Virus record (IMG/VR): IMGVR_UViG_2657245634_000013
Coordinates: 1-12,094 of that record
Direction: 5' to 3' (one strand)
Source: a virus
Lineage: Duplodnaviria > Heunggongvirae > Uroviricota > Caudoviricetes
Length of the DNA: 12,094 bases
The notes under the pieces are model-generated. The model saw nothing but the letters and a program-made list of their open reading frames with translations. It did not search any database and had not been told where the DNA came from. Made by a program: the position numbers and the translations under genes. Positions 169 through 12,094 of the stretch are shown one piece after another. Every line of letters begins with the position of its first letter. The stretch's first letter is position 1.

Positions 169-253
169 AGGTAATTTAAAAACGGTTCTGTGAAAGTGAC
201 ACGAACCGATCTCCATCGATGTTACTCACCGATCTCCTTCACGGTAATACGCA
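1..253 (+). mobile_element. Right end of an IS21-family insertion sequence (istB 3' end plus terminal region); the exact terminus is uncertain, roughly 240-260
   Basis: IstB-like C-terminus followed by a non-coding stretch with the motif CCGATCTCC repeated directly at 215-223 and 232-240. Multiple subterminal repeats are typical of IS21-family ends. The terminus itself cannot be fixed without a reference copy. Confidence 0.4.
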
Positions 254-262
254 TTTTTCCCT

Positions 263-658
263 GTGGAGCTTAAAATCGCTTATCAGGAATCCGGCGAATG
301 GCCCGATGATGGAATCGAAATTGACGACACTGTTGCCGCCGAATTTATGAAGGAAGCACCAGAAGGAAAATACAGAGGTGTCATCGACGGAATGCCTGCA
401 TGGATTGATATTCCACCGCCAACTCATGAGGAACAAATTGCCGCAGCCGAACTGGAAAAGCAGCAATTGATTAATCAGGTCAACGAATACATAAACAGTA
501 AGCAATGGCCTGGTAAAGCGGCGATTGGTCGCCTGAAAGGTGAGGAACTGGCGCAATATAATTTGTGGCTGGATTATCTGGACACACTGGAACTGGTCGA
601 TACTTCCGGTGCGCCAGATATTGAATGGCCTACGCCTTCGGCAGTTCAGGCCAGATGA
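263..658 (+). pseudogene. Phage tail fibre assembly protein (Tfa/U-like chaperone), apparently 5'-truncated
   Basis: Translation ends ...LDTLELVDTSGAPDIEWPTPSAVQAR, the typical Tfa C-terminal motif (DTS.APD..WP). The frame opens only at 248 just after a TAA; the first possible start is a GTG at 263 with no RBS. The product is shorter (131 aa) than the neighbouring 185-aa Tfa and sits right against the IS end. Confidence 0.6.
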
Positions 659-1187
659 CATCCGGCGCAGTGCTGGTATCTGTTACCGTCACCGCGTCAA
701 TATAATCCAGCACGGCGTTAAGTCGGGTTGTTTCTGCCTGCGTCAGCTTCCGCCCGGCCTGTAATTTCAGTTGAATCAGACTGATGGAAGCCATTGCAGC
801 ATCAATCAGCGACTGGCGCTGTGCTTCTGCCGCGTCTAGTGCGGCACTATGCTGTGCCTCAGTATCTGTCATCCATTTCTCACCATCCCATTTATCGTAT
901 GGCGTTAACGGTGAAAGCGTGACATAACCGTCTTTGATGGCACCGATATAATCCACTGTAACAGCTACGCCATTTTCGATTGAGTAAACAGTCTCATTGC
1001 GGTGGTCTTCTTCATGGCTCCATCCCTTACCCGTAAATACTGCCACTTTCCCCGGAATGTATTCGCCCGGGTCAATACCAGTGGAACAGGCGGGCATACT
1101 TACGCCAGTATTAATATATTCATCAGACCAGCCCGAATATTCAGACGTTACTGCATCATAATAAAAACAACGCATATCACCCGGCAC
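630..1187 (-). CDS. Phage tail fibre assembly protein (alternative Tfa/U'-like chaperone of the invertible segment)
   Basis: 185-aa ORF ending ...LDYIDAVTVTDTSTAPDVIWPELPKA (Tfa C-terminal motif). It lies immediately downstream of the minus-strand tail-fibre exon and overlaps the plus-strand tfa convergently at 630-658. Start is GTG at 1187 or ATG at 1175. Confidence 0.75.
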   Translation of the reverse strand: MPGDMRCFYYDAVTSEYSGWSDEYINTGVSMPACSTGIDPGEYIPGKVAVFTGKGWSHEEDHRNETVYSIENGVAVTVDYIGAIKDGYVTLSPLTPYDKWDGEKWMTDTEAQHSAALDAAEAQRQSLIDAAMASISLIQLKLQAGRKLTQAETTRLNAVLDYIDAVTVTDTSTAPDVIWPELPKA

Positions 1188-1223
1188 TGTAGCCAGCCCA
1201 TTTTCATCAAAAAACAGGTTTCA

Positions 1224-1730
1224 TTATGCAGCCCTCACAATATAATTAAAGGCGATGTTACGTGGACGGTTTTCATTAGCTGTTGGCACGACACGAGAGG
1301 CGTCGAATCCAAGGTCATCGGTTTTGCCTATATCAGTTGTGTTATTCGGCATTCTCGCAGATCGTGTTCCTGCATCATAAAAAGCCCCTCTGATTGCATC
1401 AAAAGACATACCGATCCCGCCATCTGCGAATCCCTCAATATTTCTTATTGCATCCCCCTGTGAAGATAATAATTGTCGCCCGGCATCCACTCCACGTCCG
1501 TCATCCCAGCCACGAATAAATTCACCGCGTAAATCAGGCAATTTATTTGTCGGATAAACCTTTGCCAGTTCCGGGTATTCTTCAGCAGAAAAAGCCGCAC
1601 CGTTGCATTTCAGCCAGCCAGTAGGCGGTGTGGCTGAAGGCCACGGAACAGGCACACCAACGGGTAATGCCGAACCTTCTCCCAAACCAACGTTTATGAA
1701 AATGCAGAGATAACGGCTAACTGGCATCAT
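1224..1730 (-). CDS. Tail-fibre variable C-terminal exon (Mu S'v / P2 H C-terminus-like), silent orientation; the real tail-fibre portion is about 1224-1675
   Basis: Contains PVGVPVPWPSATPPTGWLKCNGAAFSAEEYPELAKVYPTNKLPDLRG and the C-terminal ...NIAFNYIVRAA, both characteristic of P2 H / Mu S variable domains. The first ~18 codons lie outside the crossover site and the frame is closed by TAA just upstream, as expected for the non-expressed copy of an invertible tail-fibre gene. Confidence 0.8.
   Translation of the reverse strand: MMPVSRYLCIFINVGLGEGSALPVGVPVPWPSATPPTGWLKCNGAAFSAEEYPELAKVYPTNKLPDLRGEFIRGWDDGRGVDAGRQLLSSQGDAIRNIEGFADGGIGMSFDAIRGAFYDAGTRSARMPNNTTDIGKTDDLGFDASRVVPTANENRPRNIAFNYIVRAA
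1676..1701. other. Putative DNA-invertase crossover site (gix/hix/pix-like)
   Basis: TTCTCCCAAACC-AA-CGTTTATGAAAA: two imperfectly inverted 12-bp half-sites around a 2-bp core, similar to hixL TTCTTGAAAACC-AA-GGTTTTTGATAA and gix TTATCCAAAACC-TC-GGTTTACAGGAA (quoted from memory). It sits at the constant/variable boundary of the tail-fibre exon and next to the invertase gene. Confidence 0.55.
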
Positions 1731-1757
1731 CTCCGGTTTTTATTCAGGGGGATGATC

Positions 1758-2351
1758 ATGCTTATTGGCTATGTACGCGTGTCAACAAATGACCAGAACA
1801 CGGAATTGCAGAGTAATGCGCTGGAGTGTGCAGGATGTGAGCTGATTTTTGAGGATAAAATCAGCGGCTCGAAGTCCGACAGGCCGGGGCTGAAAAAACT
1901 GCTCAGGACACTATCGGCAGGAGACACGTTGGTTGTCTGGAAGCTGGACAGACTGGGGCGCAGTATGCGGCATCTCGTTACGCTGATAGAAGAGTTGCGC
2001 CAGCGTGGTGTGAATTTCAGAAGCCTGACTGACAGTATTGATACCAGTACCCCAATGGGCCGTTTCTTTTTTCATGTCATGGGTGCCCTGGCTGAAATGG
2101 AGCGAGAACTCATTGTCGAGCGGACACGCGCAGGACTGGAAGCGGCCAGAGCCAAAGGTCGTATTGGTGGCAGACGACCGAAACTCACCGCGAGAGAGTG
2201 GGAGCAGGCAGGACGGTTGCTGGCTGCGGGGGAATCTCGTCAACGTGTGGCGCTGATTTTTGATATTGGCCTGTCCACGCTCTATAAAAAATTCCCCTCA
2301 TCAGCGACAAAGAATAAATTGTGTCATCCCTTAGCCAACCGGGACAAATAG
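1758..2351 (+). CDS. Serine DNA invertase of the Gin/Hin/Pin/Cin family
   Basis: MLIGYVRVSTNDQNTELQ...VVWKLDRLGRSMRHL...MGRFFFHVMGALAEMERELIVERT...GRIGGRRPKL...STLYKKFP: resolvase/invertase catalytic N-terminus with the catalytic Ser in VRVSTNDQ and a C-terminal HTH; closely resembles e14 Pin as recalled. The ATG at 1758 is preferred over 1752 because AGGGGG at 1744-1749 gives better RBS spacing. Confidence 0.9.
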   Translation: MLIGYVRVSTNDQNTELQSNALECAGCELIFEDKISGSKSDRPGLKKLLRTLSAGDTLVVWKLDRLGRSMRHLVTLIEELRQRGVNFRSLTDSIDTSTPMGRFFFHVMGALAEMERELIVERTRAGLEAARAKGRIGGRRPKLTAREWEQAGRLLAAGESRQRVALIFDIGLSTLYKKFPSSATKNKLCHPLANRDK

Positions 2352-2410: not shown

Positions 2411-3601
2411 ATGAGTGACTATCATCACGGCGTGCAGGTGCTGGAGATTAACGACGGCACCCGCGTCATTTCCACCGTATCCACTGCCATTGTCGGCATG
2501 GTCTGCACGGCCAGCGATGCGGATGCGGAAATCTTCCCCCTCAATAAACCGGTGCTGATCACCAATGTGCAGAGCGCGATTGCAAAGGCCGGTAAAAAAG
2601 GCACGCTGGCGGCATCGTTGCAGGCCATCGCTGACCAGTCAAAACCGGTCACCGTTGTCGTGCGCGTGGAAGACGGCACCGGCGACGACGAAGAAACGAA
2701 ACTCGCGCAGACCGTTTCCAATATCATCGGCACCACTGACGAAAACGGTCAGTACACCGGACTGAAAGCCCTGCTGGCGGCGGAGTCGGTTACCGGTGTT
2801 AAACCGCGTATTCTCGGTGTGCCGGGACTGGACACCAAAGAGGTGGCGGTTGCACTGGCATCAGTCTGTCAGAAGCTGCGCGCTTTCGGGTATATCAGCG
2901 CATGGGGCTGTAAAACCATTTCCGAGGTGAAAGCCTACCGCCAGAATTTCAGCCAGCGTGAGCTGATGGTCATCTGGCCGGATTTCCTCGCATGGGATAC
3001 GGTCGCCAGTACCACCGCCACCGCGTATGCCACCGCCCGTGCGCTGGGCCTGCGCGCTAAAATCGACCAGGAGCAGGGCTGGCATAAAACGCTGTCCAAC
3101 GTCGGGGTAAACGGTGTTACCGGCATCAGTGCCTCTGTATTCTGGGATTTGCAGGAGTCCGGCACCGATGCTGACCTGTTGAACGAGTCAGGTGTCACAA
3201 CGCTGATTCGCCGTGACGGTTTCCGATTCTGGGGTAACCGTACCTGCTCTGATGACCCGCTGTTCCTCTTTGAAAACTACACCCGCACCGCGCAGGTGCT
3301 GGCCGACACGATGGCTGAGGCGCACATGTGGGCGGTGGACAAGCCCATCACCGCAACGCTGATTCGCGACATCGTTGACGGCATCAATGCCAAATTTCGT
3401 GAGCTGAAAACAAACGGCTATATCGTGGATGCGACCTGCTGGTTCAGCGAAGAATCCAACGATGCGGAAACCCTTAAGGCCGGAAAACTGTATATCGACT
3501 ACGACTATACCCCGGTTCCTCCTCTTGAAAACCTGACCCTGCGCCAGCGTATTACCGATAAATACCTGGCAAATCTGGTCACCTCGGTTAACAGCAATTA
3601 A
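2411..3601 (+). CDS. FI: Contractile tail sheath protein (P2 gpFI)
   Basis: 396-aa ORF beginning MSDYHHGVQVLEINDGTRVISTVSTAIVGMVCTASDADAE..., essentially matching P2 FI as recalled; same length as P2 FI; GGAG RBS at 2400-2403. Confidence 0.95.
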   Translation: MSDYHHGVQVLEINDGTRVISTVSTAIVGMVCTASDADAEIFPLNKPVLITNVQSAIAKAGKKGTLAASLQAIADQSKPVTVVVRVEDGTGDDEETKLAQTVSNIIGTTDENGQYTGLKALLAAESVTGVKPRILGVPGLDTKEVAVALASVCQKLRAFGYISAWGCKTISEVKAYRQNFSQRELMVIWPDFLAWDTVASTTATAYATARALGLRAKIDQEQGWHKTLSNVGVNGVTGISASVFWDLQESGTDADLLNESGVTTLIRRDGFRFWGNRTCSDDPLFLFENYTRTAQVLADTMAEAHMWAVDKPITATLIRDIVDGINAKFRELKTNGYIVDATCWFSEESNDAETLKAGKLYIDYDYTPVPPLENLTLRQRITDKYLANLVTSVNSN

Positions 3602-3613
3602 GGAGCCTGACCG

Positions 3614-4132
3614 ATGGCAATGCCGCGCAAACTCAAGTTAATGAACGTCTTTCTGAACGGCTACAGCTATCAGGGCGTTGCAAAGTCCGTCACGCTGCCA
3701 AAACTGACCCGTAAACTCGAAAACTATCGCGGTGCGGGGATGAACGGAAGCGCACCGGTAGACCTCGGCCTTGATGACGATGCGCTGTCAATGGAGTGGT
3801 CGCTCGGGGGCTTCCCGGATTCGGTTATCTGGGAGCTTTACGCCGCAACCGGCGTGGATGCCGTACCGATTCGTTTTGCAGGCTCTTACCAGCGCGACGA
3901 TACCGGCGAAACGGTAGCCGTTGAAGTGGTCATGCGTGGACGTCAGAAAGAAATCGACACCGGCGAGGGTAAACAGGGAGAAGACACCGAGTCGAAAATC
4001 TCCGTAGTCTGCACCTATTTCCGGCTGACGATGGACGGTAAGGAGCTGGTCGAAATCGACACCATCAACATGATTGAGAAGGTGAACGGCGTCGACCGGC
4101 TGGAGCAACACCGCCGCAATATCGGCCTGTAA
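3614..4132 (+). CDS. FII: Tail tube protein (P2 gpFII)
   Basis: 172-aa ORF MAMPRKLKLMNVFLNGYSYQGVAKSVTLPKLTRKLENYRGAG... directly after the sheath gene; AAGGAG RBS at 3599-3604; length equals P2 FII. Confidence 0.95.
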   Translation: MAMPRKLKLMNVFLNGYSYQGVAKSVTLPKLTRKLENYRGAGMNGSAPVDLGLDDDALSMEWSLGGFPDSVIWELYAATGVDAVPIRFAGSYQRDDTGETVAVEVVMRGRQKEIDTGEGKQGEDTESKISVVCTYFRLTMDGKELVEIDTINMIEKVNGVDRLEQHRRNIGL

Positions 4133-4188
4133 TTTTCATCCGGTCAGTCAGGCTGACCGGTTAACCCCGATTCAGAAGTGAGAAAACC

Positions 4189-4464
4189 ATGAACAAAGAA
4201 AATGTCATTACCCTGGACAATCCGGTCAAACGTGGTGAGCAGGTTATCGAACAGGTCACGCTGATGAAACCCAATGCCGGGACGCTGCGCGGTGTCAGTC
4301 TGGCAGCGGTCGCGAACTCCGAAGTCGATGCACTGATTAAGGTGCTGCCGCGCATGACGGCACCGATGCTGACCGAGCAGGAAGTCGCCGCGCTGGAACT
4401 GCCTGACCTTGTGGCGCTGGCCGGTAAGGTGGTCGGTTTTTTGTCGCCGAACTCGGTGCAGTGA
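4189..4464 (+). CDS. E: Tail assembly chaperone (P2 gpE)
   Basis: 91-aa ORF MNKENVITLDNPVKRGEQVIEQVTLMKPNAG... in the position and size of P2 E; contains the TTTTTTG slippery heptamer near its 3' end. Confidence 0.9.
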   Translation: MNKENVITLDNPVKRGEQVIEQVTLMKPNAGTLRGVSLAAVANSEVDALIKVLPRMTAPMLTEQEVAALELPDLVALAGKVVGFLSPNSVQ

Positions 4465-4616
4465 CGTTTCCAAAAAATCTCTCGGTCGATGACCTGATGG
4501 CGGATGTGGCAGTGATATTTCACTGGCCGCCATCAGAACTGTATCCCATGAGCCTGACCGAACTCATCACATGGCGCGAAAAGGCGCTCCGGCGAAGCGG
4601 AAACACGAATGAGTAA
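4189..4616 (+). CDS. Tail assembly chaperone frameshift product (P2 gpE+E'), made by -1 ribosomal frameshift at T_TTT_TTG (4437-4443)
   Basis: After a -1 slip at 4437-4443 the new frame stays open and reads ...FVAELGAVTFPKNLSVDDLMADVAVIFHWPPSELYPMSLTELITWREKALRRSGNTNE, ending at TAA 4614-4616 and overlapping the T start. This is the conserved E/E' (lambda G/GT-type) arrangement. Confidence 0.8.
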
Positions 4617-7056
4617 CAATGTAAAATTACAGGTATTGCTCAGGGCTGTTGACCAGGCATCCCGCCCGTTTAAATCCATCCGCACAGCGAGTAAGTCGCT
4701 GTCGGGGGATATCCGGGAAACACAAAAATCACTGCGCGAGCTGAACGGTCAGGCATCCCGTATTGAGGGATTCCGCAAGACCAGTGCACAGCTCGCCGTG
4801 ACTGGTCATGCACTTGAAAAGGCACGGCAGGAGGCCGAAGCCCTTGCCACACAGTTTAAAAATACCGAACGTCCGACCCGTGCTCAGGCGAAAGTGCTGG
4901 AATCCGCAAAGCGTGCGGCGGAGGACTTACAGGCGAAATATAACCGCCTGACGGATTCCGTTAAACGCCAGCAGCGGGAACTGGCCGCTGTGGGAATTAA
5001 TGCCCGCAATCTTGCACATGATGAGCAGGGACTGAAAAACCGTATCAGTGAAACCACCGCACAACTTAACCGTCAGCGCGACGCGCTGGCGCGTGTCAGT
5101 GCGCAACAGGCAAAACTTAACGCAGTAAAACAGCGTTATCAGGCCGGAAAGGAACTGGCCGGAAATATGGCCTCAGTAGGCGCTGCCGGTGTGGGGATTG
5201 CGGCGGCGGGAACGATGGCCGGAGTTAAGTTGCTGATGCCCGGTTATGAGTTTGCGCAGAAAAACTCAGAATTGCAGGCCGTGCTAGGTGTGGCAAAAGA
5301 CTCCGCCGAAATGGCTGCACTACGCAAGCAGGCGCGCCAGCTCGGCGACAACACCGCCGCCTCGGCGGATGATGCTGCCGGTGCACAGATTATTATCGCG
5401 AAAGCCGGTGGGGATGTTGATGCCATTCAGGCGGCAACGCCGGTCACGCTGAATATGGCGCTGGCGAACCGTCGCACGATGGAAGAAAACGCCGCCCTGC
5501 TGATGGGGATGAAATCCGCCTTTCAGCTTTCAAACGATAAGGTCGCTCATATCGGGGATGTTCTCTCCATGACGATGAACAAAACCGCCGCCGATTTTGA
5601 CGGCATGAGCGATGCGCTGACCTATGCCGCACCTGTGGCAAAAAATGCCGGTGTCAGCATTGAAGAAACCGCCGCAATGGTCGGGGCGCTGTATGATGCA
5701 AAAATCACAGGCTCAATGGCGGGGACGGGAAGCCGTGCCGTGTTAAGCCGCCTGCAGGCACCGACGGGAAAAGCATGGGATGCACTCAAAGAGCTTGGAG
5801 TGAAAACCTCAGACAGCAAGGGAAACACCCGACCAGTATTTACCATTCTGAAAGAAATGCAGGCCAGTTTTGAGAAAAACCGGCTCGGTACTGCCCAGCA
5901 GGCTGAATACATGAAAACTATTTTCGGGGAGGAGGCCAGCTCAGCCGCCGCCGTGCTGATGACTGCCGCCTCAACCGGAAAGCTGGACAAACTGACCGCT
6001 GCGTTTAAAGCCTCAGACGGGAAGACCGCCGAGCTGGTAAATATCATGCAGGACAACCTCGGCGGTGACTTTAAAGAGTTTCAGTCCGCTTATGAGGCGG
6101 TGGGGACTGACCTGTTTGACCAGCAGGAAGGCGCACTGCGTAAGCTCACGCAGACGGCCACAAAGTATGTGTTAAAACTCGACGGCTGGATACAGAAAAA
6201 CAAATCACTGGCGTCAACCATCGGCATCATTGTCGGTGGTGCACTGGCACTGATTGGTGTCATCGGTGCCATTGGCCTCGTAGCCTGGCCGGTTATCACC
6301 GGCATCAATGCCATCATCGCGGCAGCAGGCGCAATGGGGGCAGTCTTCACGACGGTTGGCAGTGCTGTTATGACCGCCATCGGGGCTATTAGCTGGCCGG
6401 TTGTGGCCGTGGTGGCCGCAATTGTCGCCGGGGCGTTGCTTATCCGTAAATACTGGGAGCCTGTCAGCACATTCTTTGGCGGTGTGGTGGAAGGGCTGAA
6501 AGCGGCATTTGCGCCGGTGGGGGAACTGTTCACGCCACTTAAGCCGGTGTTTGACTGGCTGGGCGAAAAGTTACAGGCCGCGTGGCAGTGGTTTAAAAAC
6601 CTGATCGCCCCGGTTAAAGCCATCCAGGACACCCTGAACCGTTGCCGTGACACGGGCGTCATGTTCGGGCAGGCACTGGCTGACGCGTTGATGCTGCCGC
6701 TTAATGCGTTCAACAAACTGCGCAGTGGTATTGACTGGGTACTGGAAAAACTCGGTGTTATCAACAAAGAGTCAGACACACTTGACCAGACCGCCGCCAG
6801 AACTCATGCCGCCACGTATGGCACCGGTGGTTATATTCCGGCGACCAGCTCTTATGCAGGCTATCAGGCTTATCAGCCGGTTACGGCACCGGCTGGCCGC
6901 TCTTATGTGGACCAGAGTAAAAACGAATATCACATCAGTCTGACGGGCGGTACTGCGCCGGGGACTCAGCTCGACCGCCAGTTACAGGATGCGCTCGAAA
7001 AATACGAGCGGGATAAACGTGCGCGCGCCCGTGCCAGCATGATGCATGACGGTTAA
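4609..7056 (+). CDS. T: Tail tape measure protein (P2 gpT)
   Basis: 815-aa ORF with an N-terminal coiled-coil-rich region and a long Gly/Ala-rich hydrophobic segment (aa about 530-600), typical of tape measure proteins. Same length and position as P2 T. Confidence 0.95.
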   Translation: MSNNVKLQVLLRAVDQASRPFKSIRTASKSLSGDIRETQKSLRELNGQASRIEGFRKTSAQLAVTGHALEKARQEAEALATQFKNTERPTRAQAKVLESAKRAAEDLQAKYNRLTDSVKRQQRELAAVGINARNLAHDEQGLKNRISETTAQLNRQRDALARVSAQQAKLNAVKQRYQAGKELAGNMASVGAAGVGIAAAGTMAGVKLLMPGYEFAQKNSELQAVLGVAKDSAEMAALRKQARQLGDNTAASADDAAGAQIIIAKAGGDVDAIQAATPVTLNMALANRRTMEENAALLMGMKSAFQLSNDKVAHIGDVLSMTMNKTAADFDGMSDALTYAAPVAKNAGVSIEETAAMVGALYDAKITGSMAGTGSRAVLSRLQAPTGKAWDALKELGVKTSDSKGNTRPVFTILKEMQASFEKNRLGTAQQAEYMKTIFGEEASSAAAVLMTAASTGKLDKLTAAFKASDGKTAELVNIMQDNLGGDFKEFQSAYEAVGTDLFDQQEGALRKLTQTATKYVLKLDGWIQKNKSLASTIGIIVGGALALIGVIGAIGLVAWPVITGINAIIAAAGAMGAVFTTVGSAVMTAIGAISWPVVAVVAAIVAGALLIRKYWEPVSTFFGGVVEGLKAAFAPVGELFTPLKPVFDWLGEKLQAAWQWFKNLIAPVKAIQDTLNRCRDTGVMFGQALADALMLPLNAFNKLRSGIDWVLEKLGVINKESDTLDQTAARTHAATYGTGGYIPATSSYAGYQAYQPVTAPAGRSYVDQSKNEYHISLTGGTAPGTQLDRQLQDALEKYERDKRARARASMMHDG

Positions 7057-7070
7057 GGAGGTGACGAAAA

Positions 7071-7550
7071 ATGATGCTCGCGTTAGGTATGTTTGTTTTT
7101 ATGCGCCAGACGCTGCCACACCAGACCATGCAGCGTGAATCAGATTATCGCTGGCCGTCAAATTCCCGTATCGGTAAACGGGATGCCTTTCAGTTTCTCG
7201 GTGTTGGCGAGGAAAACATCACGCTTGCCGGTGTGCTTTATCCCGAACTGACCGGCGGAAAGCTGACGATGACCACGCTCAGGCTGATGGCAGAGGAAGG
7301 CCGGGCGTGGCCGTTGCTGGATGGCACAGGCATGATTTACGGCATGTATGTCATCAGCAGGGTGAGTGAAACAGGGAGTATTTTCTTTGCAGACGGCACA
7401 CCCCGGAAAATTGATTTTACGCTGTCGCTCACCCGCGTGGATGAATCACTGGCCGCGCTTTATGGCGATATCGGTAAACAGGCGGAGTCGCTCATCGGTA
7501 AAGCTGGCAGTATGGCGACCAGATTCACGGGTATGACGGGGGCGGGATAA
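7071..7550 (+). CDS. U: Tail protein (P2 gpU)
   Basis: 159-aa ORF after T with AAGGAGG RBS at 7055-7061; its stop overlaps the D start (TAATG), indicating translational coupling. Length and order as in P2. Confidence 0.9.
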   Translation: MMLALGMFVFMRQTLPHQTMQRESDYRWPSNSRIGKRDAFQFLGVGEENITLAGVLYPELTGGKLTMTTLRLMAEEGRAWPLLDGTGMIYGMYVISRVSETGSIFFADGTPRKIDFTLSLTRVDESLAALYGDIGKQAESLIGKAGSMATRFTGMTGAG

Positions 7551-8713
7551 TGCTGGATGCACTGACATTTGATGCAGGCAGTACGCTGACGCCGGATTAC
7601 ATGCTGATGCTCGACAGCAGGGATATTACCGGCAATATCAGCGACCGTCTGATGAGTATGACCCTGACGGATAGCCGGGGCTTTGAGGCTGACCAGCTTG
7701 ATATTGAACTGAACGATGCCGACGGGCAGGTCGGGCTGCCGGTTCGTGGTGCTGTTCTGACGGTGTATATCGGCTGGAAAGGTTTTGCCCTGGTATGCAA
7801 AGGGAAATTCACCGTTGATGAGGTTGAACACCGGGGCGCGCCGGATGTTGTCACCATCCGCGCCCGGAGTGCAGATTTTCGCGGGACGCTCAATTCCCGC
7901 CGTGAAGGCTCATGGCATGACACCACGCTCGGTGCGATTGTTGAGGCGATAGCCTCCCGTAACAGGCTGAAAGCCAGTGTCGCTCCGTCACTGGCCGGAA
8001 TTAAAATCCCGCACATCGACCAGTCGCAGGAGTCTGATGCGAAATTCCTGACCCGTCTTGCAGAACGCAACGGCGGTGAGGTGTCGGTAAAAATGGGAAA
8101 ACTGTTGTTTCTCAAAGCGGGGCAGGGGGTGACGGCCAGCGGTAAAAAAATCCCGCAGATTACCATCACCCGCAGCGACGGCGACCGCCATCATTTTGCG
8201 ATTGCTGACCGTGGAGCCTATACCGGCGTAACGGCAAAGTGGTTACACACCAAAGACCCGAAGCCGCAAAAGCAGAAGGTAAAACTGAAACGCAAAAAGA
8301 AAGAAAAACACCTGCGCGCACTGGAGCACCCGAAAGCAAAACCGGTCAGGCAGAAGAAAGCGCCAAAAGTACCGGAAGCGCGCGAAGGTGAATACATGGC
8401 CGGTGAGGCTGACAACGTTTTTGCCCTGACCACGGTATATGCCACGAAAGCACAGGCCATGCGTGCCGCTCAGGCGAAGTGGGATAAACTGCAACGGGGC
8501 GTTGCGGAGTTCTCCATCAGCCTGGCTACCGGTCGTGCAGATATTTACACGGAAACACCGGTCAGAGTGTCAGGCTTTAAGCGCGTCATAGACGAGCAGG
8601 ACTGGACCATCACTAAGGTGACACATTTTCTGAATAATAGCGGCTTCACGACGTCCTTAGAGCTTGAGGTCAGGCTTTCTGATGTGGAGTACGAAACAGA
8701 AGATGATGAGTGA
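7550..8713 (+). CDS. D: Tail protein D (P2 gpD, late control gene D)
   Basis: 387-aa ORF MLDALTFDAGSTLTPDYMLMLDSRDITGNISDRLMSMTLTDSRGFEADQLDIELNDADG... with a Lys-rich linker; length and position as in P2 D. Confidence 0.95.
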   Translation: MLDALTFDAGSTLTPDYMLMLDSRDITGNISDRLMSMTLTDSRGFEADQLDIELNDADGQVGLPVRGAVLTVYIGWKGFALVCKGKFTVDEVEHRGAPDVVTIRARSADFRGTLNSRREGSWHDTTLGAIVEAIASRNRLKASVAPSLAGIKIPHIDQSQESDAKFLTRLAERNGGEVSVKMGKLLFLKAGQGVTASGKKIPQITITRSDGDRHHFAIADRGAYTGVTAKWLHTKDPKPQKQKVKLKRKKKEKHLRALEHPKAKPVRQKKAPKVPEAREGEYMAGEADNVFALTTVYATKAQAMRAAQAKWDKLQRGVAEFSISLATGRADIYTETPVRVSGFKRVIDEQDWTITKVTHFLNNSGFTTSLELEVRLSDVEYETEDDE

Positions 8714-8794
8714 CGTTTTTATTTTATCTATTTGTTTTATAAGGATAAATTAACTAAAATGGCACCATCAACAAAACCGGAAGAGGTGCTCGCG

Positions 8795-9013
8795 ATGTTT
8801 CATTGTCCTTTATGCCAGCATGCCGCACATGCGCGTACAAGCCGCTATATCACTGACACGACAAAAGAGCGTTATCATCAGTGCCAGAACGTGAATTGCA
8901 GTGCCACGTTCATCACTTATGAGTCGGTACAGCGATACATCGTGAAGCCGGGAGAAGTCCACGCCGTAAGGCCGCACCCGTTGCCGTCAGGGCAGCAAAT
9001 TATGTGGATGTGA
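8795..9013 (+). CDS. ogr: Late gene transcriptional activator Ogr (zinc-finger)
   Basis: 72-aa product MFHCPLCQHAAHARTSRYITDTTKERYHQCQNVNCSATFITYESVQRYIVKPGEVHAVRPHPLPSGQQIMWM with the Cys-X2-Cys...Cys-X4-Cys zinc-binding motif. The ORF-track start at 8732 is an in-frame upstream extension; the ATG at 8795 gives the canonical 72-aa Ogr. Confidence 0.95.
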   Translation: MFHCPLCQHAAHARTSRYITDTTKERYHQCQNVNCSATFITYESVQRYIVKPGEVHAVRPHPLPSGQQIMWM

Positions 9014-9168: not shown

Positions 9169-9249
9169 ATCCTCAATTTGCCTGCTGCTTAATGCATTGC
9201 AGATGATTTGCTTCCGTTATACTAGCGTCAGTTGATAGCGGGAGTATTT

Positions 9250-9867
9250 ATGAATCAATCTTATGGACGGCTGGTCAGTCGGGCGGCGATTGCTGCGACG
9301 GCGATGGCTTCGTTGCTATTGCTGATTAAAATTTTTGCATGGTGGTATACCGGGTCGGTGAGTATTCTCGCCGCGCTGGTGGATTCGCTGGTGGATATCG
9401 GCGCGTCGTTGACGAATTTACTGGTGGTGCGATATTCCCTGCAACCTGCCGACGATAATCACTCGTTTGGTCACGGTAAAGCAGAGTCCCTCGCGGCGCT
9501 GGCGCAAAGTATGTTTATCTCCGGTTCGGCACTATTCCTGTTTTTGACGGGTATTCAACATCTGATATCTCCAACACCGATGACAGATCCAGGCGTCGGG
9601 GTTATCGTGACAATTGTGGCGCTAATTTGTACGATTATCCTTGTCTCGTTTCAGCGTTGGGTGGTGCGCCGGACGCAAAGCCAGGCGGTGCGGGCTGATA
9701 TGCTACATTACCAGTCTGATGTTATGATGAACGGCGCAATTCTGCTGGCGCTGGGGTTGTCCTGGTACGGCTGGCATCGCGCCGATGCTCTGTTTGCATT
9801 GGGAATCGGCATCTATATTTTATATAGCGCGTTACGCATGGGATATGAGGCGGTACAGTCATTACTG
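9250..9867 (+). pseudogene. fieF: Cation-diffusion-facilitator ferrous iron/zinc efflux protein FieF (YiiP), 3'-truncated after about codon 206
   Basis: [86 protein letters not shown]... matches FieF up to ...[10 protein letters not shown]; GGAG RBS at 9242-9245. After about 9867 the frame continues only as antisense read-through of the autotransporter gene, and the cytoplasmic C-terminal domain (expected DRALPDEERQ...) is absent. Confidence 0.85.
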
Positions 9868-12063
9868 GCTGTGACCATTCATATCCAGTTCAGTCTCTGC
9901 CGCCAGACGCAGTTCATGGGTATTACCCAACACGTTATCGTTATTCAACAAAAGCGTCCCACTGCGCAGATCGGTAACACCGGTATAGTCGTTGTCTTTG
10001 TTAGAAAGCGATACGGTCTGACCCTTCTGGCTGCTGAATGCCAGGTCACCACTGCCGGTAATCTTTGCGCTGAGATCGGCGGCATTCTCGCTTTTACCGT
10101 TAGAGCTCAGCACCAGAGCATCGCTGTCGGTAGCGTGTAAATCAAGCTGGGTCAGGCCGTAACCGATATACAGACCGTCATTGTTTACCCCACTCGTCAG
10201 ACGATAGTCGTAAGTGCCGACGGCCGCTTTTTGCCCATTCTGCTGAATATCACGTTGGGCACTGCTGGAGAGGATTTGCCCATTTTTATCCTGCAATTGC
10301 AGATTGCCCGCATCGCCCAGAACTTCCGCACCTTGCGCATCAACCAACTTAATGGTGCTGTTACCATCATCGACTTCAGTGAGCGATAACGCAGAGTCAA
10401 TATCACGAGATACTGAGCTTACAACGTCACTGTCAGAAACCTGAATCACACCCTCGCCGCGCAAATCCAGCGTTTTACTAACGTTGACCGTCCCTTCTGT
10501 CATCTGTGCACCTGCTGTCAGGGCACCAAAATCAACGGTTCCGCCGGAGAATCCCAAAGTGCTAATGGAGTGAGCGCCCTTACCCACTATTACCTGGCTT
10601 CCCTGACCCGCAGTGATCCCGCCTCTCTGCAGAAACTCAGCATTCTTTTCCAGGTTAAATGTCGTGTTCTGGAACGCCAGTGAACCCTGGAACCAGTCTG
10701 TATAAGCAAACTCATCGAAGGAGAATTCGTGATTCCCCATGTTTATTTCAACAATACCTCTACCTTGAAGATCGTTATCAAATACCCAATCTTTATTGGC
10801 ATTGATTTGCAGTTTGCCATCAACATCCAGGTCCGCACGGCCGATGTTCTTGTCTTCAGAAATAACCGCGACAGCACCAGAAGCGACATCAATATATCCG
10901 CTGAATGCATAGTTATTGCCGGTCAGTGCCACTGTCCCACTGTCGATACTTATTGTACCATTGCCGGAAATCTTATTGGCAAAGGTCATGCTATCGTCAG
11001 CCTTCAGGTGTAATTTCCCGCGGTTGTTGATCTCTGCTGTACCTATATTTTGGGTGATCCCTAAAGCGCCATTTTGCTCAATTTTGACTTTACCACTAAA
11101 GGCAGAGTTATCACCGGTTAAGTAAGTCGTGCCATTGAGCGCATTGATATAGCCCAGGCCCTCGCTGCCACTGACAATATCCGCGGAAATAGTCGCGTTT
11201 TTATCCGTGTGGTTTAAGGTGATTTTCTTATCGGATGTCTTTGCCCACACAAACTCAATTTTTTCGGCATCAATAATCCCTGCAGCCTTCGCAGCACTTC
11301 CTTCCTGTGCACCTAACGCTAACTCAGAGTTGGTGCTTAAACTAATTTTCGGTGCGGATATTTTACCTCCATCTGATACGACTAATGTTGTATCAGAACG
11401 TTGGTCGTAATAACCCAGGCTAATATGTTCACGAGCATTAACTTCACCGCCGTTATTAACTGACAGGTACTGATTACCACCGTAACTGCCGTAAACGCCC
11501 ATAAAGAAGGTTTTAGAATTTACCTGGCTGCCTTCACCACTGACATTTCCCTGCAAATAGGTCAGACGGCTGGTGCCCTTAACATGGATTTTGCCGCCGT
11601 TGGAGACATTAAAATAGCCGCGATCGTGTCTCATGCCTGAGTTTGACTCATACAAATCATCAGCATATAACTCGCTGCCAGCATTGGAGACATTCAGGAA
11701 CCCCGTACCTTTCAGCAAAAAGTTAAGTGGGCCATTGATAGTTACCTTTCCTCCGGTAATATCCAACCCACCACCAGAAGCGAGAGTCAGACGCGGACGG
11801 GAAGTATCTGTCGCATTGATTACCAGATTGGCATTGTCAGTCACCGTAATACGGTAATCGATGCTCTGGTTCTCTTTGCCAAAATCAATAGTTTTATCCT
11901 GGTTTACGATGACATCATCGGCGAATACCAGAGATGAATATAAACTTATCGCGCTAATTAAAACAGCCCGGGACTTTTTTCCTTTTACTCTGCTCCCCAG
12001 CTCCGAGCAGACGCTCCAACAGTTACGGGACCTGTTCCACTTTAGCCGATATATTTTATTCAT
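9862..12063 (-). pseudogene. Autotransporter adhesin (type Va), signal peptide plus beta-helical passenger domain, 3'-truncated (no beta-barrel translocator)
   Basis: N-terminus MNKIYRLKWNRSRNCWSVCSELGSRVKGKKS... is an extended signal peptide region (ESPR) typical of autotransporters, followed by a Gly/Asn/Ser/Thr-rich repetitive passenger (GNxxxSG-type beta-helix repeats). The ORF ends ...ELDMNGHSQ with its stop codon supplied by fieF-derived sequence at 9862-9864. Lower GC than the flanking sequence. The likely start is the ATG at 12061-12063, not the track start at 12087. Confidence 0.75.
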
Positions 12064-12094
12064 CACAATCTCCAGCAATACATCCAAATAAAAC

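What the first reader, a model, noticed from the sequence alone, without database searches (positions are those of the whole stretch)
4437..4616. Programmed -1 frameshift producing E+E' tail chaperone
The slippery heptamer T_TTT_TTG lies 7 codons before the E stop, and the -1 frame is open for 58 more codons ending inside the start of T. This is the conserved tail-chaperone frameshift (P2 E/E', lambda G/GT). The single-frame ORF track would miss this product.
Basis: partly seen in the sequence, partly recalled or inferred. Interest (0 to 1): 0.3.

Follow-up and report, generated by a model that had tools for sequence, protein, structure and literature searches.

The report
Phage P2 E/E' tail-chaperone frameshift
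This is the already well-known programmed -1 ribosomal frameshift site of phage P2's tail-assembly chaperone gene (E giving E+E'), sitting nucleotide-for-nucleotide unchanged in a P2-like prophage of E. coli, so it is real but ordinary.

Summary
TTTTTTG lies at 4437-4443 and is phased T_TTT_TTG in gene E (4189-4464). The -1 frame is open from 4428 to TAA 4614-4616, which overlaps the ATG of tape-measure gene T (4609).

The window is the FI-FII-E-T-U-D-ogr arm of a P2-like (Peduovirus) prophage. Positions 4133-4640 differ from phage P2 at 10 bases. The 41 bases around the heptamer are identical. The fusion protein is 141/142 identical to P2 gpE+E' (NP_046780.1/O64312), which the P2 record annotates as a joined CDS with a "-1 translational frameshift".

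Supporting evidence:
- E matches Pfam Phage_TAC_7 and E' matches Phage_P2_GpE.
- In 16 diverse relatives (33-76% identity) E' is always in the -1 frame, with an in-frame X_XXY_YYZ heptamer in the overlap.
- The heptamer is invariant in 74 close haplotypes.
- Substitutions fall mainly at third codon positions of each frame.
- The stand-alone GTG start that pipelines annotate is missing in 20 of 74 haplotypes.

I found no stimulatory RNA element. Verdict: already known, low interest.

The parts
3614..4132 (+). FII, tail tube protein gene. It is the upstream neighbour expected for a tail-chaperone frameshift pair.
   Evidence: Pfam PF04985 Phage_tube, E 2.3e-60. Colinear with P2 FII.
4189..4464 (+). 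Gene E, zero-frame product gpE (91 aa), the tail assembly chaperone.
   Evidence: ORF. PF10109 Phage_TAC_7, E 2.6e-12, above the curated cut-off. One amino-acid difference (S29N) from P2 gpE. The exact 91-aa sequence is found on at least 1000 public contigs.
4425..4427 (+). TAA stop in the -1 frame, three codons before the heptamer. It is the upstream limit of the E' reading frame, so E' has almost no room for a start of its own upstream of the slip site.
4437..4443 (+). Slippery heptamer T_TTT_TTG. Phe-tRNA sits in the P site on UUU and Leu-tRNA in the A site on UUG; both re-pair one base back.
   Evidence: Identical to the annotated P2 site. Invariant in 74 of 74 haplotypes. Of 16 diverse relatives, 12 have T_TTT_TTG and the other four have T_TTT_TTT, T_TTT_TTC, A_AAT_TTT or G_GGA_AAG.
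4443..4616 (+). E' segment: 57 codons read in the -1 frame after the slip, then TAA 4614-4616.
   Evidence: PF06528 Phage_P2_GpE, E 2.1e-22. 100% amino-acid identity to P2 E'. Substitutions against relatives fall mainly at third codon positions of this frame.
4189..4616 (+). E+E' fusion coding region, join(4189..4443, 4443..4616), 142 aa.
   Evidence: 141/142 identical to NP_046780.1/O64312.
4609..7056 (+). T, tape measure protein gene. Its ATG overlaps the E' stop by 8 nt.
   Evidence: PF10145, E 6.8e-45. Colinear with P2 T.

Best explanation
Proposed mechanism. Ribosomes translating gene E of this P2-like prophage reach T_TTT_TTG (4437-4443). A minority of them, about one in ten in P2 itself, slip one base backwards. 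At that moment Phe-tRNA is on UUU in the P site and Leu-tRNA is on UUG in the A site. Decoding then continues in the -1 frame with GUC (4443-4445) for 57 codons, up to TAA 4614-4616. The outcome is two proteins with a shared N-terminus: abundant gpE (91 aa) and rarer gpE+E' (142 aa, ...GFL|VAELG...).

Inferred function. By analogy with lambda gpG/gpGT, the shared E domain coats the tape measure protein gpT. The E' extension recruits the tube protein (FII), so that the tail tube and sheath polymerise to the length set by T. Neither protein ends up in the virion.

What is shown here: the sequence anatomy, near-identity to the experimentally studied P2 site, family-wide conservation of the two-frame arrangement and of the heptamer, and purifying selection in both frames.

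What is taken from the literature or inferred: that a fusion protein is actually made and at what frequency; the tRNA-level slippage; the chaperone roles of the two domains; and that this particular prophage still expresses the operon.
For: - Anatomy.
- Identity with P2: 10 differences in 508 nt, none in 4428-4468. The P2 record annotates join + '-1 translational frameshift'. The exact reference protein O64312/NP_046780.1 has GFLVAE.
- Domains: E is PF10109 Phage_TAC_7 and E' is PF06528 Phage_P2_GpE.
- Synteny: tube gene, then E/E', then tape measure gene.
- Breadth: tblastn of the fusion finds 418 phage records, and 401 cover at least 80% of it. All 57 such records among the 60 rows listed match as two pieces, and the 16 examined in detail have the pieces in frames 0 and -1.
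- Diverse relatives: 16 from Escherichia to Burkholderia, Pseudomonas, Vibrio and Mannheimia (33-76% identity) all place E' at -1 with an in-frame X_XXY_YYZ in the overlap. These include non-homopolymeric G_GGA_AAG and A_AAT_TTT, which fit tandem tRNA slippage.
- Close relatives: across 74 haplotypes of 84-100% identity the heptamer is invariant and the fusion ORF intact. Variable sites by codon position (1/2/3) are 23/14/66 in E and 15/8/30 in the -1 frame of E'.
- No conserved own start for E': GTG 4461 is GTA or ATA in 20 of 74 haplotypes. Distant relatives lack any common start codon, and no Shine-Dalgarno (SD) sequence precedes 4461 or 4497.
- Literature: PMC3091744 states that P2 shifts -1 at TTTTTTG to give 91-aa E and 142-aa E+E'. 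PMC5009743 states that efficiency in P2 is 2-3 fold above lambda's. Both cite Christie et al. 2002 (J Bacteriol 184:6522) and Xu, Hendrix & Duda 2004.
Against: - No expression data exist for this prophage.
- The primary paper (Christie et al. 2002) could not be read here. The ~10% figure and the essentiality of E' therefore rest on secondary citations and on my own recollection.
- No stimulatory element was found. This is consistent with the published lack of one, but it leaves the efficiency unexplained.
- Nothing in the sequence formally separates ribosomal slippage from RNA-polymerase slippage on the U6 run in this particular phage.
Confidence: 0.93

Rival explanations
1. E' is a separate small gene, translated on its own from GTG 4461 (51 aa), as automatic pipelines annotate it. 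No frameshift is needed.
For: PGAP and several phage records call a stand-alone 'GpE family phage tail protein' at the equivalent of 4461-4616. That exact 51-aa sequence is catalogued on about 995 contigs.
Against: - GTG 4461 is replaced by GTA or ATA in 20 of 74 close haplotypes, and the fusion ORF stays intact in all 74.
- Diverse relatives share no start codon between the slip site and the conserved ADIA motif. Vibrio MAR, Mannheimia and Arsenophonus have none at all in that stretch.
- Anti-SD complementarity upstream of 4461 (-3.0 kcal/mol) and 4497 (-2.4) is the weakest among the starts examined.
- Amino-acid conservation in the -1 frame starts right at the heptamer (FL-VAE-G).
Confidence: 0.03
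2. The fusion arises at the RNA level. RNA polymerase slips on the T6 run and adds one U. It may be helped by the weak nascent hairpin 4416-4437 that abuts the run. Normal translation of the U7 mRNA then gives E+E' with Phe rather than Leu at residue 85.
For: - A terminator-like hairpin plus T run is picked up at 4416-4437.
- In the window this hairpin (-10.4 kcal/mol) is stronger than 98% of synonymous resamples.
- Hairpin-assisted slippage on short runs is known for a Roseiflexus IS element (PMC5009743, section 43).
- DNA-level T7 variants exist in three draft assemblies. They show that the run can change in length, or is error-prone in sequencing.
Against: - Efficient bacterial RNAP slippage is described for runs of about 9 A or T. 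Short runs need a strong G+C hairpin (PMC5009743). This hairpin has 4 G-U pairs out of 8.
- The terminator-like count is not above shuffles: 2 found against 1.5 expected.
- The hairpin is not conserved: median p is 0.23-0.35 across 15 relatives, and it is absent in 186-like and other relatives.
- Relatives with G_GGA_AAG or A_AAT_TTT have no homopolymer run, yet keep the X_XXY_YYZ phase.
Confidence: 0.04
3. The signal is a fossil: the prophage is defective, and the heptamer and E' frame persist only through recent common descent.
For: The window's right end is abnormal, with fieF truncated and joined to ehaA. The state of the rest of the prophage is unknown.
Against: - All tail genes in the window are intact full-length ORFs with strong Pfam matches.
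- E and E' show purifying selection across 74 haplotypes.
- The fusion differs from functional P2 by one residue.
Confidence: 0.02

Closest known systems
Bacteriophage P2 genes E and E+E' (NP_046781.1 / NP_046780.1; UniProt O64312), the programmed -1 frameshift in the FETUD tail operon (Christie et al. 2002)
   Same: - The same heptamer in the same phase.
- Identical 41-nt context.
- The same 91-aa and 142-aa products, apart from S29N.
- The same 8-nt overlap of the E' stop with the T start.
- The same flanking genes.
   Different: There are nine silent or intergenic base changes and one conservative amino-acid change. The copy sits in a prophage that carries an invertible tail-fibre cassette in place of P2 Z/fun.
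Phage 186 orf51/orf52 (gene H) and other Peduoviridae E/E' pairs (KS5, Smp131, phiCTX-like and others)
   Same: The arrangement is the same two frames with a slippery heptamer near the end of E, and the E' stop lies at or near the tape-measure start.
   Different: Amino-acid identity is 33-76%. The overlap length varies from 37 to more than 400 nt in G+C-rich hosts. A few use other heptamers: G_GGA_AAG, A_AAT_TTT, T_TTT_TTC and T_TTT_TTT.
Phage lambda gpG/gpGT tail assembly chaperones (Levin, Hendrix & Casjens 1993; Xu, Hendrix & Duda 2004, 2013, 2014)
   Same: - The gene position is the same: between the major tail/tube gene and the tape measure gene.
- Both use a -1 shift near the end of the first ORF, giving a fixed ratio of short to long product.
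- The proposed division of labour is the same: the shared domain binds the tape measure and the extension binds the tube subunit (PMC5009743).
   Different: - No sequence similarity was detected here; only PF10109 and PF06528 match.
- Lambda uses G_GGA_AAG at about 3-4%, whereas P2 efficiency is reported as 2-3 fold higher (PMC5009743).
- P2 has a contractile tail.
E. coli dnaX -1 frameshift cassette (A_AAA_AAG with an SD 10 nt upstream and a 3' stem-loop)
   Same: Both are tandem -1 slippage on an X_XXY_YYZ heptamer in E. coli ribosomes.
   Different: - There is no significant 3' structure here (z = -0.33).
- The SD-like TAAGGTGGT ends 3 nt before the heptamer, outside the 9-14 nt range described for -1 stimulation (PMC5009743).
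- That SD-like sequence is explained by the encoded amino acids.

Membership tests
P2-type gpE / gpE+E' tail assembly chaperone pair (Peduoviridae) | The N-terminal ORF belongs to the E-type tail assembly chaperone family. | tested here: met
   PF10109 Phage_TAC_7: 47 bits against a cut-off of 25, E 2.6e-12. 99% identical to P2 gpE.
P2-type gpE / gpE+E' tail assembly chaperone pair (Peduoviridae) | The extension carrying the GpE (E') domain is encoded in the -1 frame and overlaps the 3' end of E. | tested here: met
   PF06528: 78.7 bits against a cut-off of 23 on the -1 frame translation of 4443-4613. The frame offset is -1 in the window and in all 16 relatives.
P2-type gpE / gpE+E' tail assembly chaperone pair (Peduoviridae) | An in-phase slippery heptamer X_XXY_YYZ (TTTTTTG in P2) lies inside the overlap. 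| tested here: met
   T_TTT_TTG at 4437-4443. It is identical to the annotated P2 site and invariant in 74 haplotypes.
P2-type gpE / gpE+E' tail assembly chaperone pair (Peduoviridae) | The pair lies between the tail tube gene (FII) and the tape measure gene (T). | tested here: met
   FII 3614-4132, E/E' 4189-4616, T 4609-7056.
P2-type gpE / gpE+E' tail assembly chaperone pair (Peduoviridae) | A fusion polypeptide is really made, at about 10% of E, and E' is essential. | not testable with these tools
   Only secondary literature was available (PMC3091744, PMC5009743, both citing Christie et al. 2002). The primary paper is not held.
Conserved tail-chaperone frameshift of long-tailed phages (lambda G/GT type, Xu-Hendrix-Duda 2004) | Two overlapping ORFs lie between the major tail and tape measure genes, and the second ORF lacks its own conserved initiation signal. 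| tested here: met
   The GTG is missing in 20 of 74 haplotypes. There is no shared start or SD in relatives.
Conserved tail-chaperone frameshift of long-tailed phages (lambda G/GT type, Xu-Hendrix-Duda 2004) | Sequence homology to lambda gpG/gpT. This is not required for the functional class. | tested here: not met
   hmmscan against Pfam at E<=0.01 returns only PF10109 and PF06528. No PDB chain matches at E<=1.
Conserved tail-chaperone frameshift of long-tailed phages (lambda G/GT type, Xu-Hendrix-Duda 2004) | The spiral helical fold of tail assembly chaperones. | tested here: inconclusive
   The single-sequence AlphaFold2 model is unusable (mean pLDDT 40.4, pTM 0.27). No fold search was run.
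Stimulated bacterial -1 frameshift cassettes (dnaX / IS3 type) | A 5' Shine-Dalgarno-like stimulator 9-14 nt upstream and/or a 3' stem-loop or pseudoknot. | tested here: not met
   The downstream 80 nt fold gives z = -0.33, and 161 nt gives z = -1.37. The SD-like element is 3-7 nt upstream and is not stronger than synonymous resamples (window p 0.11, median 0.30 over 17 sequences).

The most novel reading that the evidence does not exclude
Translation of the tape measure gene T may be coupled mainly to termination of the frameshifted ribosomes. The E' stop (TAA 4614-4616) overlaps the T start (ATG 4609) as ATGAGTAA. T has the weakest Shine-Dalgarno complementarity of the seven gene starts examined in the window (-3.5 kcal/mol, against -5.0 to -12.6 for the others). 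Nine of 13 annotated relatives keep a 4-14 nt overlap between the E' stop and the T start. If coupling holds, the slip frequency would set not only the E : E+E' ratio but also the amount of tape measure protein made relative to E+E'. A second, less likely reading is that part of the fusion comes from hairpin-assisted RNA-polymerase slippage on the U6 run.
Probability: 0.15. Interest if true: 0.35.

Novelty: already known. Interest (0 to 1): 0.07.

Why it matters
The main value is for annotation. Standard pipelines split this locus into a 91-aa "tail assembly protein" and an orphan 51-aa "GpE family" ORF with an arbitrary GTG start. The essential 142-aa fusion is therefore missing from most prophage protein sets. 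Recognising the site allows a correct joined CDS. Biologically it adds nothing new: the site is the textbook P2 example, unchanged. The comparative data gathered here only re-confirm that the two-frame arrangement and an in-phase slippery heptamer are conserved across Peduoviridae, including hosts with very high G+C, where GGT TTT TTG is made of rare codons.

Tried and rejected
- Primary paper. Christie et al. 2002 is not held under its DOI or PMC id. I used secondary accounts instead.
- 3' stimulatory RNA. The small hairpin at 4445-4458 begins 1 nt after the heptamer. The 80-nt fold gives z = -0.33 and the 161-nt fold gives z = -1.37. Rejected; this agrees with PMC3091744.
- 5' SD-like stimulator. 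TAAGGTGGT (4425-4433) has the best anti-SD match in gene E (-8.1 kcal/mol). In 10 of the 18 sequences examined (window, P2 and 16 relatives), the strongest anti-SD site of the E gene lies within about 18 nt upstream of the heptamer. Resampling synonymous codons while keeping the amino acids ([K/E]-V-x-G) removes the signal (window p 0.11, median p 0.30). The spacing is also wrong for -1 stimulation (PMC5009743). Rejected as an independent signal.
- Hairpin abutting the U run (4416-4437), a terminator-like or transcription-slippage context. It is stronger than expected in the window only (synonymous p 0.017) and is not conserved (median p 0.23-0.35). Not supported.
- Wider locus sampling. A profile of 17 diverse fusions had no stretch conserved enough to search with. 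A 6-sequence profile worked but returned mostly near-identical loci. I used those for the haplotype analysis.
- Solved structures: none by sequence.
- Structure prediction from the single sequence was unusable (pLDDT 40).
- Inverted repeats of at least 18 nt flanking the invertible tail-fibre cassette: none within 1-2400.

Full report
**1. The observation**

I read the sequence directly. Gene E runs from ATG 4189 to TGA 4462-4464 and encodes 91 aa. Its last codons are GGT TTT TTG TCG CCG AAC TCG GTG CAG TGA. TTTTTTG at 4437-4443 is therefore phased T_TTT_TTG, a canonical X_XXY_YYZ tandem-slippage motif. The E stop is the seventh codon after TTG.

The -1 frame is closed by TAA at 4425-4427. It is then open from 4428 to TAA 4614-4616. 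T begins at ATG 4609, so E' ends 8 nt inside T (ATGAGTAA).

The heptamer string alone is not unusual, with 5 matches in the window against 2.9 expected. Its context is unusual. Among 2205 in-frame codon positions of seven genes in the window, only five carry any X_XXY_YYZ. Only 2.8% of positions are followed by at least 57 open -1 codons. The E site is the only one that has both properties and lies at a gene end.

**2. What the locus is**

The window is the right arm of a P2-like (Peduovirus) prophage. Pfam assigns the following:

| Coordinates | Gene | Pfam assignment |
|---|---|---|
| 2411-3601 | FI | tail sheath |
| 3614-4132 | FII | tail tube |
| 4189-4464 | E | Phage_TAC_7 |
| 4443-4613 (-1 frame) | E' | Phage_P2_GpE |
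| 4609-7056 | T | tape measure |
| 7071-7550 | U | GpU |
| 7550-8713 | D | GPD |
| 8732-9013 (ORF holding the gene) | ogr | Ogr/Delta |

Megablast of 4100-4700 finds 82 phage records. Of these, 74 are at least 95% identical, and they include P2 isolates. Against the reference P2 genome NC_001895, positions 4133-4640 differ at 10 of 508 bases:
- four intergenic changes;
- four silent changes in E;
- one S29N change in E;
- one silent change in E'.

Positions 4428-4468 are identical. The P2 record annotates E+E' as a two-piece joined CDS ([quoted passage not shown]). It also has a misc_feature "site of -1 translational frameshift" at the base that corresponds to window 4444.

The exact-sequence look-up shows that the reference product (NP_046780.1, UniProt O64312, "Tail assembly protein E'") reads ...GFLVAELG.... 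This corresponds to join(4189..4443, 4443..4616) in the window. The window's product is 141/142 identical to it.

**3. Independent comparative tests**

tblastn of the fusion against 50,697 phage records finds 418 records. Of these, 401 cover at least 80% of the query. All 57 such records among the 60 rows listed match as two pieces.

I fetched 16 diverse relatives: 186, Yersinia, Klebsiella, Burkholderia, Ralstonia, Stenotrophomonas, Pseudomonas, Halomonas, Aeromonas, Arsenophonus, Vibrio, Acidovorax, Mannheimia and P88-like. Their E identity to the window ranges from 33% to 76%.
- In all 16, the E' homologue lies in the -1 frame relative to E.
- In all 16, the overlap contains an in-phase X_XXY_YYZ heptamer.
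- T_TTT_TTG occurs in 12. The others have T_TTT_TTT, T_TTT_TTC, A_AAT_TTT and G_GGA_AAG.

The last two are not homopolymer runs. This favours tandem tRNA slippage over polymerase slippage as the mechanism common to the family.

Among 74 distinct haplotypes from IMG/VR (84-100% identical), the heptamer never varies and the fusion frame is never broken. Variable sites fall mainly at third codon positions of the frame in use: 23/14/66 (positions 1/2/3) in E and 15/8/30 in the -1 frame of E'. Pairwise comparison with Kp4886-2, 186 and a Yersinia phage gives the same picture. Reading the E' stretch in either other frame roughly doubles or triples the number of amino-acid changes.

**4. Rivals**

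(a) *Independent initiation of E' at GTG 4461.* This is how PGAP and several phage submitters annotate the locus. The evidence is against it:
- The GTG is GTA or ATA in 20 of 74 haplotypes.
- Distant relatives share no start codon between the slip site and the conserved ADIA motif, and three have none at all.
- Anti-SD complementarity before 4461 and 4497 is the weakest among the starts examined.
- Conservation in the -1 frame begins at the heptamer itself.

(b) *Transcriptional slippage.* A weak hairpin (4416-4437, with 4 G-U pairs out of 8) abuts the U6 run. In the window it is stronger than 98% of synonymous resamples. It is not conserved in relatives. Known bacterial slippage needs either about 9 A/T or a strong G+C hairpin (PMC5009743). 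This rival is not formally excluded for P2 by anything I could read. It predicts Phe rather than Leu at residue 85.

(c) *Fossil signal in a dead prophage.* Intact ORFs and purifying selection argue against it.

**5. Stimulators**

I found no significant downstream structure (z = -0.33 and -1.37). This matches the statement in PMC3091744 that P2-type sites lack hairpins.

The SD-like TAAGGTGGT (4425-4433) is the best anti-SD match in E. However, it lies 3-7 nt from the heptamer, whereas -1 stimulation is described at 9-14 nt (PMC5009743, section 36). It also disappears as a signal once the encoded amino acids are held fixed.

**6. Comparison with what is known**

This is the P2 E/E+E' site. 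[quoted passage not shown] According to PMC5009743, the efficiency in P2 and its relatives is 2-3 fold higher than lambda's low-level G-T shift. Both cite Christie et al. 2002, which I could not read. My recollection of that paper, marked as such, is about 10% efficiency shown with fusion polypeptides, and essentiality of E' shown by complementation.

The parallel with lambda G/GT is positional and mechanistic. No sequence similarity was detected here. A structural test failed for lack of a usable model.

**7. Verdict**

One detail needs correcting: the reference join point gives Leu, not Phe, at residue 85. The feature is already known and interest is low. Its practical value is for annotation, because the fusion product is absent from routine prophage annotations.

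**8. Things outside the finding**

These are listed under Noticed in passing. The most notable is the abnormal fieF-ehaA junction at 9865-9868.

Noticed in passing
window 9865-9868 (context 9249-12094): The host gene fieF (+ strand, starting about 9249) is colinear with E. coli prophage-fieF loci only up to 9868. From 9865 onward the window is 100% identical to the 5' part of the autotransporter adhesin gene ehaA on the minus strand, which lies at a different chromosomal locus. None of 5426 complete E. coli genomes has a place spanning the junction. The cause could be a rearrangement, an assembly chimera or a constructed window; this is unresolved. The 302-aa 'fieF' ORF (9232-10140) stays open into antisense ehaA by chance.
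   Followed up: partly
window 239-2351: In place of P2's Z/fun there is an invertible tail-fibre cassette. It holds tail-fibre assembly genes on both strands (263-658 +, 630-1187 -), a tail-collar-domain fibre tip on the minus strand (1224-1730) and a Hin/Gin-type serine invertase (1752-2351; PF00239 E 2e-52, HTH_7). No inverted repeat of at least 18 nt was found within 1-2400, so one crossover site probably lies left of the window.
   Followed up: partly
window 4140-4160: There is a perfect 8-bp hairpin, CCGGTCAG-tcagg-CTGACCGG, in the FII-E intergenic space. Three of the ten differences from P2 fall in it, and pairing is kept (one pair becomes G-U). Phage 186 annotates a 'partial terminator tI' at the same position. 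It may lower chaperone and tape-measure transcription relative to sheath and tube.
   Followed up: no
window 4609-4616: The E' stop TAA overlaps the T start ATG (ATGAGTAA). T has the weakest anti-SD complementarity of the seven gene starts examined in the window (-3.5 kcal/mol). An overlap of 4-14 nt between the E' stop and the tape-measure start is present in 9 of 13 annotated relatives. This suggests T may be translationally coupled to frameshifted ribosomes.
   Followed up: partly
L100-L102 (GCA_003592095.1, GCA_019430965.1, GCA_009741525.1), equivalent of window 4437-4443: Three draft E. coli assemblies carry T7 instead of T6 at the slip site. E and E' are therefore fused in one ORF (RJK13013.1, 142 aa, ...GFFVAE...). 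These are either homopolymer sequencing errors or real DNA-level slippage mutants that would make only the fusion.
   Followed up: partly
L070 and L073 (IMGVR_UViG_2695420821_000010, 5535-6959 and 11518-12831): One viral contig holds a full E/E' locus and, about 6 kb away, a second copy that matches only residues 1-105 of the fusion.
   Followed up: no
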